Shown piece by piece: positions 19,600 to 21,419 of a stretch of DNA of 64,000 nucleotides. Source of the stretch: Mobula hypostoma (taxonomy: Eukaryota); contig NC_086108.1 of assembly GCF_963921235.1 (NCBI RefSeq), positions 55,120,001 to 55,184,000 on the forward strand, read 5' to 3'. Positions within the stretch are counted from its first letter, which is position 1, and every line of letters begins with the position of its first letter. The position numbers were made by a program, and so were the translations under genes. The notes below the pieces were generated by a model. That model was given only the letters and a program-made list of their open reading frames with translations, was not told the DNA's origin and ran no database searches.

Positions 19600-20315
19600 A
19601 TCCCCAGTCATATGATACAGCATTATCATCCAAAATCAAAATGGTACATAAACACACATTGGCTAATAGCATCCTGCTATCTGTATTAACCCAAGCAACT
19701 GTCTAGCTAGAGGTTTCAGGTGTCAGGGAGCAAGAAGTGTGTAAAGTTACCATACTAGAGTGTAGGTTCTTGGGAAACTTTCAATTCTGAAGGTAAATAA
19801 GACCATAAGACCACAAGATATAGGAGCAGCAGTAGGCCATTCAGCCATCGAGTCTGCTTCTCCATTCAATCATGGGCTGATCCAATTCTTGCAGTCATCC
19901 CCACTCCCCTGCATTCTCCCCCTATCCTTTGATGCCCTGGCTAATCAAGAACCTATCTATCTCTGCCTTAAATGCACCCAATGACTTGGCCTCCACAGTC
20001 GCCCGTGGCAACAAATTCCACAGATTTACCACCCTCTGACTAAAGTAATTTCTCCACATCTCTATTCTAAATAGTCATCCTTCAATCCTGAAGTCATGCC
20101 CTCTTGTCCTAGAATCCCCTACCATGGGAAATAACTTTGCCATATCTAATCTGTTCAGGCCTTTTAACATTTGGAATGTTTCCATGCGATCCCCCCTCAT
20201 TCTCCTGAACTCCAGGGAATATAGCCCAAGAGCTACCAGACGTTCCTCATACAGTAACCCTTTCATTCCTGGAATCATTCTTGTGAATCTTCTTTGAACC
20301 CTCTCCAATGGCAGT

Positions 20316-20872
20316 CAGTCAGTCAGTGGGTGCCGTCCCGAATCTGGGGTTGGCAGCTATACACCTCCATCTTCTTTGATCTTACGACAGCACCGAGTAC
20401 AGCCTCTCCTCCAGTTTGTTCTCGCTGGCCGCCTTGGCACTGCCCGCTGTCACCCCCGCCAAACTCGAGCTCGAGGCCGTATCGGCCTCCAGCCGCAGCC
20501 GCTTCTTCGAGCTCAGCCCTCCCTTAGGCGGAGGCCTTGGGCAGGTCCAGGCACACGGTGCAGCGCCCAAGTTCATCATGTCTCTTCTAACTAAGTGCAT
20601 AGCATACGATTCATAGATACGCAGTGAGGCTTTAAACTCTTCCACAGAAGATGGCTGTTGGCTCACAAGGAGCTCATCCGCCCTTTATCAAGTCTTGTTT
20701 TTTATTTAGTCCTTCTGGGTGTCCTCACACCCTCCTCACCAGACTAAGTCTGGTGGGGGAGCCGGCCCAAGTCCCCGACCACTCGACCATGGCCCCCGAC
20801 CAAGCACTGGGCACCCGCCCCCCGCCGAGTCTCTCTGAGCACTCGGCGCCCGACCGAAAACCATGGTCGAGC
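20316..20872 (-). mobile_element. Non-autonomous RTE-derived retroposon (structured 5' region plus RTE 3' end, (ACTG)n tail)
   Basis: TSD AATGGCAGT at 20307-20315 and 20888-20896. (CAGT)4 at 20312-20327. The 3' part reads like an RTE ORF end (RDMMNL..DQRRWRCIAANP) and is split by a gene fragment. A 24-bp hairpin lies at the 5' end. Confidence 0.75.
20387..20564 (-). pseudogene. CYHR1: Circularly permuted 178-bp fragment of CYHR1/ZFTRAF1 (N-terminal region into the start of the RING-like zinc finger)
   Basis: Minus 20564-20529 encodes (C)[11 protein letters not shown]. Minus 20531-20387 encodes PPKGGLSSKKRLRLEAD...[12 protein letters not shown]. Vertebrate CYHR1, as I recall it, reads ...PPKKRLR...[26 protein letters not shown]. 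Confidence 0.88.
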
Positions 20873-21419
20873 ATATATCCTTTCTGAAATGGCAGTATAT
20901 CCTTTCTAAAATAAGACAAAATGAAACAAGAAGCCCAAAACTGCACACGATACTCAAGTGTCATCTCAGGAGTACCTATAGGGTCTCAACATCACATCCC
21001 TGCTCTTATAGTCTATAGCTCTAGAAATGAATGCCAACATTGCATTCGCCTTCTTCACCACCCACTCAACCTGCAGGTTAACCTGCACAAGGACTCCCAA
21101 GTCCCTTTGCATCTCTGCATTTTGAATTCTCTCCCGATCTAAATAATAGTCTGCCCATTTATTTCTTCCACCAAAAGTGCATGACCATACACTTTCCACC
21201 TGGACCAGACGGTGTACACCCCAGGGTTCTAAAAGAGGCGGCTGAAGAGATTCTGGAGGCATTGCCAACCCTATGTGATCTCTTTCTAACGATTTAATTT
21301 CATTTTTTACCAACACAGCCATGTCACTCCCTCAGCTTTTCTGCCTGTCCTTTGGATTCAATGCATATCCTTGGACATTAACCTCCCATCTATTTAACAA
21401 ATATCATCTATGTTAATAA

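What the first reader, a model, noticed from the sequence alone, without database searches (positions are those of the whole stretch)
20316..20872. Non-autonomous RTE-derived retroposon carrying host-gene cargo
Seen in sequence: a TSD-bounded element with an (ACTG)n tail. Its RTE-like 3' segment (AGAGACATGATGAACTTGG...AAGATCAAAGAAGATGGAGGTGTATAGCTGCCAACCCC) is interrupted about 60 nt from the tail by the CYHR1 piece. The cargo is in the same sense as the element and has no TSD of its own. Inference: there are three routes. (a) The RT switched templates onto a circular nucleic acid during target-primed reverse transcription, copied one round and returned. (b) The circle was captured at a break after insertion. 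(c) The cargo is part of an amplified subfamily. If other copies hold different inserts at this position, the family would be a cargo-capturing system that I do not recognise as described.
Basis: partly seen in the sequence, partly recalled or inferred. Interest (0 to 1): 0.8.

Follow-up and report, generated by a model that had tools for sequence, protein, structure and literature searches.

The report
Ray retroposon carrying rotated host exon
This is one copy of a short jumping element of a ray, present in an estimated thousand copies, built from the two ends of a LINE with the same rotated 178-base piece of the host gene CYHR1 between them, likely captured once in the founder, whose front-end hairpin also carries a cluster of A-to-G changes that likely record RNA editing written back into the genome.

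Summary
The element is real, but it is not a cargo-capturing system. It is one copy of a family of about 1,000 (416 exact hits to a family-specific 25-mer). Of 60 unselected copies, 59 carry the same CYHR1/ZFTRAF1 piece at the same site and one breaks off inside it; none is empty or holds another insert. I found the partner LINE (3.35 kb, RTE type). The cargo does not interrupt an RTE 3' segment: it joins the RTE 5' leader to the last 59 nt and replaces 2.9 kb. It is an exact rotation of 178 nt of exon 1, with no gap or overlap, ending 4 nt short of the splice donor. One capture, most likely a double template jump by the reverse transcriptase onto a circular template, then amplification; RNA versus DNA circle is unresolved. 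The scan already reported this permuted cargo on other copies in this genome. Not in the notes I saw: the 5' end is an inverted duplication in which 15 of 23 A's became G on the sense strand, against 0 of 99 elsewhere (p about 1e-13), as expected for ADAR hyper-editing fixed in the founder.

The parts
20307..20315 (.). Target-site duplication, 3' side (9 bp; overlaps the last tail unit)
   Evidence: host frame restored
20316..20327 (-). (ACTG)3 microsatellite tail, shared with the partner RTE
20328..20386 (-). Last 59 nt of the partner RTE LINE (end of its ORF); family consensus identical to the consensus of 30 RTE 3' ends
20387..20524 (-). Cargo block A: upstream 138 nt of the CYHR1/ZFTRAF1 exon-1 segment
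20525..20564 (-). Cargo block B: the 40 nt that follow A in the gene, here placed before A; ends 4 nt short of the exon-1 donor
20565..20836 (-). RTE 5' end and leader with 98-, 7- and 10-nt deletions; its first 75 nt (about 20762-20836) are the loop and direct arm of the hairpin, with 12 A-to-G changes in the family consensus
20837..20872 (-). Inverted copy of the RTE 5' region (54 nt in the family, first 18 nt missing here); pairs with the direct arm; 3 A-to-G changes in the consensus
   Evidence: (I4)
20873..20887 (-). 15 extra nt at the 5' junction, a copy of the adjacent target DNA; private to this copy
   Evidence: (D4, 94% over 17 nt)
20888..20896 (.). Target-site duplication, 5' side (9 bp)

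Best explanation
This is one copy of a non-autonomous retroposon family made of the 5' leader and the last 59 nt of an RTE-type LINE with one fixed, exactly rotated 178-nt piece of CYHR1 exon 1 between them, which likely arose once when the LINE's reverse transcriptase jumped onto a small circular (or end-to-end closed) copy of that exon piece, copied it one full round and jumped back onto the LINE RNA 2.9 kb upstream. Shown: the anatomy, the single source gene, the exact rotation, the invariance of the cargo across copies, and spread with target-site duplications and the partner's tail. Inferred: trans-mobilisation by the partner's protein; capture during reverse transcription (about 0.55) rather than at a DNA break; an RNA template somewhat more likely than a DNA one (about 60:40); stopping after one round because the enzyme meets its own start or the circle was cut once. 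The founder lineage also gained an inverted copy of its 5' end, and the resulting RNA hairpin was likely hyper-edited by ADAR; the inosines were copied as G and fixed before amplification (about 0.85). The order of capture and hairpin formation is unknown. Confidence that the cargo is a single founder event later amplified is about 0.95; the number below is for the capture route.
For: Family and invariance: 416 exact hits; 56 full + 3 partly deleted cargo + 1 broken-off of 60 unselected copies; TSDs of 7 nt or more in 30 of 55 copies against 143 of 2,970 mismatched pairs. Partner: 107 cargo-free 3' ends, near-full copies of 3.2-3.4 kb, endonuclease domain, relatives are single ORFs of about 1,000 aa with endonuclease and RT. 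Rotation: natural order occurs once in the genome, in exon 1 of the intron-containing gene (exon 2 about 91 kb away); cargo equals the rotated 178-nt segment with 3 substitutions and no indel. For a reverse-transcriptase route: same sense, all within one exon, end 4 nt from the donor; this RTE often rearranges while inserting (9 of 73 stretches have an inverted 5' block, 2 more join an inverted 5'-UTR piece to a 3' part); the closest RTE copy (L273, shares the 7-nt deletion, 210 of 220 identical) continues with a 3-nt match to the cargo start after a one-base slip. Editing: A-to-G in 12 of 18 and 3 of 5 A's of the two hairpin zones, on the sense strand in both arms, against 0 of 99 elsewhere, p 8e-14; other substitutions not enriched, 3 of 128 against 7 of 430; the changes weaken the hairpin (-125.2 to -107.5 kcal/mol); G is the majority base at all 15 sites in unselected copies.
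Against: All three joints have zero exact microhomology against the RTE consensus and the gene, which fits end-joining as well as template jumping. 178 bp from a 73% GC first exon fits microDNA (PMC6511871, passages). The internal joint is not a clean back-splice: 2 nt are missing, the upstream AG is preceded by G with one T in 25 nt, and the one genomic hit with a C before that AG is a point variant. No intermediate was found, so the order of events is not shown. Two of the 15 A-to-G sites lie in the 20-nt loop rather than the long stem; the ADAR 5'-G avoidance is only a trend (5 of 11 against 10 of 11, p 0.06); the ancestral state rests on 4-7 RTE 5' ends.
Confidence: 0.55

Rival explanations
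1. A nucleosome-sized DNA circle (microDNA) from the CYHR1 CpG island was cut once and captured as filler at a double-strand break that deleted 2.9 kb of a genomic RTE copy; the product kept both mobilisation signals and spread.
For: [quoted passage not shown]
Against: Does not explain the end 4 nt from the splice donor (roughly 1-2% by chance, my estimate) or the same-sense orientation (even odds); needs a rare full-length RTE to suffer a large deletion and catch a circle at once; no founder locus seen.
Confidence: 0.3
2. No circle existed: a linear exon-1 RNA was cut once, and the two fragments were copied in swapped order by three end-to-end jumps (or ligated), or a one-jump chimera inserted into the leader of an existing RTE copy.
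For: Zero gap at the opening point and blunt joints also follow from a single cut; Dong et al. note that non-colinear junctions can come from reverse transcription across the close ends of a structured linear RNA (PMC4897178).
Against: Needs more independent steps. The nested-insertion version predicts a tail followed by the rest of the RTE leader: 0 hits in the genome and no RTE interior beside any of 123 family loci.
Confidence: 0.13
3. The family is a recurrent cargo-capturing system that takes different inserts at this site.
For: None found.
Against:: no empty site and no other insert. The 354 hits for the unedited 5' motif are, in the 30 read, 2 RTE copies and 28 copies of a different short family. 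The not-cargo filters pass only about 42% of random sequences and need exact anchors, so a few one-off variants could be missed.
Confidence: 0.02

Closest known systems
Bipartite, ORF-absent non-autonomous RTE elements (Bov-A, WALLSI3, RTESINE2, MAR4_MD; Kojima 2018, PMC5786205; part 1 of 5 and passages read)
   Same: 5' end and extreme 3' end of an RTE, ORF deleted, microsatellite tail, no RNA-gene head.
   Different: Those hold only LINE-derived parts; this one has 178 nt of rotated host exon at the deletion joint and an inverted, A-to-G-scarred copy of its own 5' end.
circRNA-derived pseudogenes (Dong et al. 2016, PMC4897178; part 1 of 2 of the text read)
   Same: Non-colinear host exon sequence in many genomic copies linked to retroelements (33 circRFWD2 copies, LTR-rich flanks).
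   Different: There the joint is an exact back-splice between whole exons; here it lies within one exon, 4 nt short of the donor, inside a non-LTR element.
eccDNA-mediated AB-to-BA insertions (bioRxiv 10.64898/2026.09.03.749254, abstract and passages; Takahashi and Innan 2020, PMC7188851, passages)
   Same: Cyclic shift of one unique source with full coverage and no overlap.
   Different: Those are single or few-copy insertions, 80 of 82 on the source chromosome; this one replaced a LINE's ORF and was amplified about a thousandfold.
SVA_F1 (MAST2 exon 1) and pt_SVA_D6 (STK40 exon 1) (PMC6139936, passages; lead came from a scan note)
   Same: A GC-rich first exon of a host gene became a fixed part of an amplified non-autonomous retroposon.
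   Different: Acquired by ordinary splicing at the 5' end, colinear, 84-94 copies; here internal, rotated, about 1,000 copies.
ADAR ultra-edited RNAs (Carmi et al. 2011, PMC3197674, passages)
   Same: Dense A-to-G clusters confined to long double-stranded RNA, few other mismatches, deficit of G upstream.
   Different: Those are RNA-versus-DNA differences; here the pattern is in genomic DNA, in the consensus of a transposon family.
Pack-TIRs / Pack-MULEs (Tan et al. 2021, PMC8277862, passages)
   Same: Host fragment as filler inside a non-autonomous element, sometimes amplified afterwards.
   Different: DNA transposons, nearby colinear fillers with microhomology; here a retroposon, rotated filler, blunt joints.

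Membership tests
Bipartite non-autonomous RTE | 5' part derives from the LINE's 5' end | tested here: met
   91-96% identical to 8 RTE leaders
Bipartite non-autonomous RTE | 3' part is the LINE's extreme 3' end with its microsatellite tail | tested here: met
   59 of 59 nt identical between consensus sequences; same (ACTG)n
Bipartite non-autonomous RTE | ORF removed by internal deletion | tested here: met
   2,873-2,905 nt missing against 4 RTE copies
Bipartite non-autonomous RTE | Consists solely of LINE 5' and 3' parts | tested here: not met
   178 nt of host exon and a 54-nt inverted duplication
Bipartite non-autonomous RTE | Spread by retrotransposition (TSDs, 5' truncation) | tested here: met
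   TSD in 30 of 55 against 143 of 2,970; variable 5' ends
Bipartite non-autonomous RTE | Partner belongs to the RTE clade | tested here: inconclusive
   3.35 kb, endonuclease, relatives are single ORFs near 1,000 aa with endonuclease and RT, several named CFDP2 (that CFDP2 derives from BovB is recalled). Consistent, but no tree against named clades was built.
Pol III SINE | tRNA, 5S or 7SL-derived head | tested here: not met
   no Rfam match near a gathering score; the 5' end is fully explained by RTE sequence
circRNA-derived pseudogene | Non-colinear order of exon sequence | tested here: met
circRNA-derived pseudogene | Joint is an exact donor-to-acceptor back-splice | tested here: not met
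   block ends 4 nt before the donor; would need a 2-nt loss and a G-preceded AG without pyrimidine tract; no copy with the intact joint
circRNA-derived pseudogene | The circular RNA exists in transcriptomes | not tested
   no read-level result was obtained
eccDNA-mediated AB-to-BA insertion | Cyclic shift of one unique source, at least 95% coverage, at most 5% overlap | tested here: met
   178 of 178 nt, no overlap; one source
eccDNA-mediated AB-to-BA insertion | Template was DNA and integrated at a DNA break | not testable with these tools
   founder locus not found
SVA_F1-type exon trapping | First exon joined at its splice donor, colinear, at the element's 5' end | tested here: not met
   internal, rotated, 4 nt short of the donor
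ADAR hyper-editing footprint | A-to-G cluster on the RNA sense strand confined to duplex RNA, other changes not enriched | tested here: met
   15 of 23 against 0 of 99, p 8e-14; 3 of 128 against 7 of 430, p 0.70; 2 of the 15 lie in the loop
ADAR hyper-editing footprint | Deficit of G 5' of edited sites | tested here: inconclusive
   5 of 11 after G against 10 of 11 after other bases, p 0.06
ADAR hyper-editing footprint | The same sites are edited in RNA made from the unedited template | not testable with these tools
   no unedited precursor in the genome; needs an in vitro assay

The most novel reading that the evidence does not exclude
The founder of this family captured a circular RNA made from CYHR1 exon 1 by copying it exactly once during retrotransposition, and its own RNA was hyper-edited by ADAR, so about a thousand genomic copies now preserve both a retro-captured RNA circle and a germline-fixed burst of A-to-I editing, which may have helped the element spread by weakening a double-stranded hairpin.
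Probability: 0.25. Interest if true: 0.75.

Novelty: new variant of a known kind. Interest (0 to 1): 0.5.

Why it matters
It is a well-preserved fossil of two rarely caught events. First, a small circle (or circle-like template) of host sequence became a permanent part of a retroposon and was amplified about a thousandfold, scattering CpG-rich copies of a host first-exon piece across the genome; such copies can also mislead gene annotation and circRNA calling for CYHR1 in rays. Second, the strand-specific A-to-G cluster is a near-direct record that RNA editing can be written into germline DNA through retrotransposition and inherited by a whole transposon family, and it suggests a simple genome-wide screen for more cases. 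It is not a new capture machine: the event happened once.

Tried and rejected
Empty site, gaps 0-30 and 30-60 nt: 0 hits. Other inserts: none. 'Interrupted RTE 3' segment': rejected; my own early guess that the 5' joint is the ORF start was also wrong, it lies in the leader about 45 codons before the endonuclease motif. Unedited precursor with the 98-nt deletion: 1 hit, and it is the inverted arm of a family copy. Intact RTE leader followed by cargo: 0. Tail followed by RTE leader: 0. Intact back-splice joint in a genomic copy: not found. Rfam: nothing near threshold. No RNA holder was listed on record for the gene, and a read-level test for a back-spliced exon-1 RNA was not obtained, so that question stays open. 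In two further organisms (runs X19, X23) contigs held only short RTE-like pieces; this does not show absence. A ribozyme at the RTE 5' end was not tested. Literature: CYHR1 + retrotransposon gave 1 unrelated paper; searches listed no description of this family or of an ADAR-edited transposon consensus (listings and abstracts only). Repbase and Dfam could not be searched, so the family may be catalogued there. Preprint supplements were not seen.

Full report
Observation. On the minus strand the window holds an element from 20887 down to 20316, ending in (ACTG)3 and bounded by a 9-bp duplication at 20307-20315 and 20888-20896. It sits in a decayed LINE whose frame is restored when the element and one duplication are removed (that the host looks CR1-like is my recognition, not a database result). 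The piece at 20387-20564 translates to CYHR1/ZFTRAF1 sequence in two blocks.

It is a family. The 5' part alone gave 1,766 first-look candidates, 40 scored; all 29 other loci fetched carry the same cargo at the same site, one with an internal deletion and one split by a later insertion. The cargo alone gave 930 candidates. A family-specific 25-mer has 416 exact hits; 11 of 28 cargo-selected copies match it exactly, so about 1,060 copies reach that point, a rough figure. I fetched 60 of the 100 listed hits without regard to cargo (in list order, skipping some already held, plus one chosen for an RTE-like base): 56 hold the full cargo, 3 have internal deletions, and 1 breaks off after about 22 nt into unrelated DNA. 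TSDs of 7 nt or more occur in 30 of 55 copies against 143 of 2,970 mismatched pairs; 58 top-scoring copies differ from the consensus by 5.6% (2.8% outside CpG).

No empty site, no other cargo. Patterns for an empty joint found nothing. After the 5' joint, 3 of 416 hits pass a not-cargo filter, and all are cargo copies shifted by small indels. Before the 3' joint, 107 hits pass such a filter; of the 100 listed, 99 are RTE 3' ends and 1 is a cargo copy with a deletion; 7 were not listed. These filters pass about 42% of random sequence, so rare one-offs could escape, but not a family of variants.

The partner. The cargo-free 3' ends extend into a 3.35-kb LINE with an endonuclease domain; its relatives are single ORFs near 1,000 aa with endonuclease and RT, the RTE layout. 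Its last 59 nt equal the element's. The element's 5' part matches the LINE's 5' end and leader with deletions of 98, 7 and 10 nt; one RTE copy already has the 7-nt deletion and is the closest (L273, 210 of 220). So the cargo bridges the deletion of the ORF, and the element is a bipartite RTE derivative in the sense of Kojima 2018 (PMC5786205) with a filler.

The cargo. The natural block order occurs once in the genome, in a reading frame whose best relatives are ZFTRAF1/CYHR1 of sawfish and skates. It is the real exon 1: similarity to the sawfish protein stops at the donor and resumes about 91 kb away. The family consensus equals a 178-nt exon segment rotated by 138 nt, with 3 substitutions and no gap or overlap. 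The rotated segment ends 4 nt before the donor, and all three joints have zero exact microhomology.

How it likely formed. Exact rotation is the standard sign of a circular intermediate (PMC7188851; bioRxiv 10.64898/2026.09.03.749254). I favour capture during target-primed reverse transcription: the enzyme copied tail plus 59 nt, moved to the circle, went round once and resumed in the leader. Same sense, confinement to one exon, the end near the donor, this LINE's frequent insertion-time rearrangements (11 of 73 stretches) and a slipped 3-nt match in L273 point that way. Against a clean back-spliced circRNA: 2 nt are missing, the acceptor would be poor and no copy keeps the intact joint. For microDNA: size and CpG-island origin (PMC6511871). 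A circle-free route is noted by Dong et al. (PMC4897178). My odds: reverse-transcriptase jump 0.55, DNA-break filler 0.30, circle-free 0.13, recurrent capture 0.02. No intermediate survives to decide.

The edited hairpin. Full-length copies (28 of 58 examined) begin with a 54-nt inverted copy of the already shortened RTE 5' region. Against the RTE sequence, 12 of 18 A's in the loop and direct arm and 3 of 5 in the inverted arm are G, on the sense strand in both arms; in the rest of the leader, the cargo and the tail 0 of 55, 28 and 16 A's changed (p 8e-14). Other substitutions are not enriched. The changes turn A-U pairs into G-U and weaken the fold, which argues against gene conversion between the arms or selection for stability. 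This is the pattern of ADAR ultra-editing (PMC3197674), here in DNA. G is the majority base at all 15 sites in unselected copies, with A appearing mainly where the G is part of a CpG, so the changes predate the amplification. Weak points: two sites lie in the loop, the neighbour preference is only a trend, and the ancestral state rests on few RTE 5' ends.

Distribution. Contigs from two coded organisms (runs X1 and X5, two studies) hold hairpin-bearing pieces; two others gave only short RTE-like pieces (4 of 24 listed runs laid; the cargo was not part of the stretch laid). The family is therefore probably older than one species.

What is known. Bipartite RTEs, exon-carrying SVAs (PMC6139936), circRNA pseudogenes, rotated eccDNA insertions and Pack-TIRs (PMC8277862) each share one feature. 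Searches listed no paper on this family or on an edited transposon consensus; repeat databases could not be searched. The scan's own notes describe the permuted cargo on at least nine other copies in this genome, reached after my own tests; the lines shown do not mention the edited hairpin.

Verdict. Real, a new variant of a known kind. The cargo-capturing system is not supported. Interest 0.5, carried by the exact rotation amplified a thousandfold and by the editing footprint.

Noticed in passing
L244-L272 (28 of 30 loci), e.g. L250:1440-1900 after orientation: A second short non-autonomous family, about 450 nt, with a 5' region about 80% like this RTE's leader and an (AG)n tail; most of the 354 pattern hits probably belong to it. 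Three copies (L247, L261, L268) run on into longer sequence, likely its own partner LINE.
   Followed up: partly
L248 and L256, just after the shared 5' region: Both copies of that second family carry the same unrelated insert at about the same place; it looks like a small DNA transposon (recalled, not tested).
   Followed up: no
window 20873-20887: 15 nt at the 5' junction copy the adjacent target DNA, making a near-tandem 22-nt repeat.
   Followed up: partly
L094, L100, L101, L122, L130, L138, L144, L157, L160; L104, L117: RTE copies with inverted 5' blocks (twin-priming-like), and two in which an inverted 5'-UTR piece is joined to a distant 3' part.
   Followed up: partly
L039 / L051 (G000:C80, about 8.177-8.179 Mb): Two family copies in opposite orientation within about 400 nt of each other.
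   Followed up: no
L005: A family copy split inside the cargo by an insertion of about 840 nt with a 12-nt overlap that may be its TSD.
   Followed up: no
L061 and L239 (G000:C5): CYHR1/ZFTRAF1 intron 1 is about 91 kb long in this genome.
   Followed up: partly
window about 19800-21200: The host site is a decayed LINE on the minus strand, CR1-like by my recognition of its translation.
   Followed up: partly
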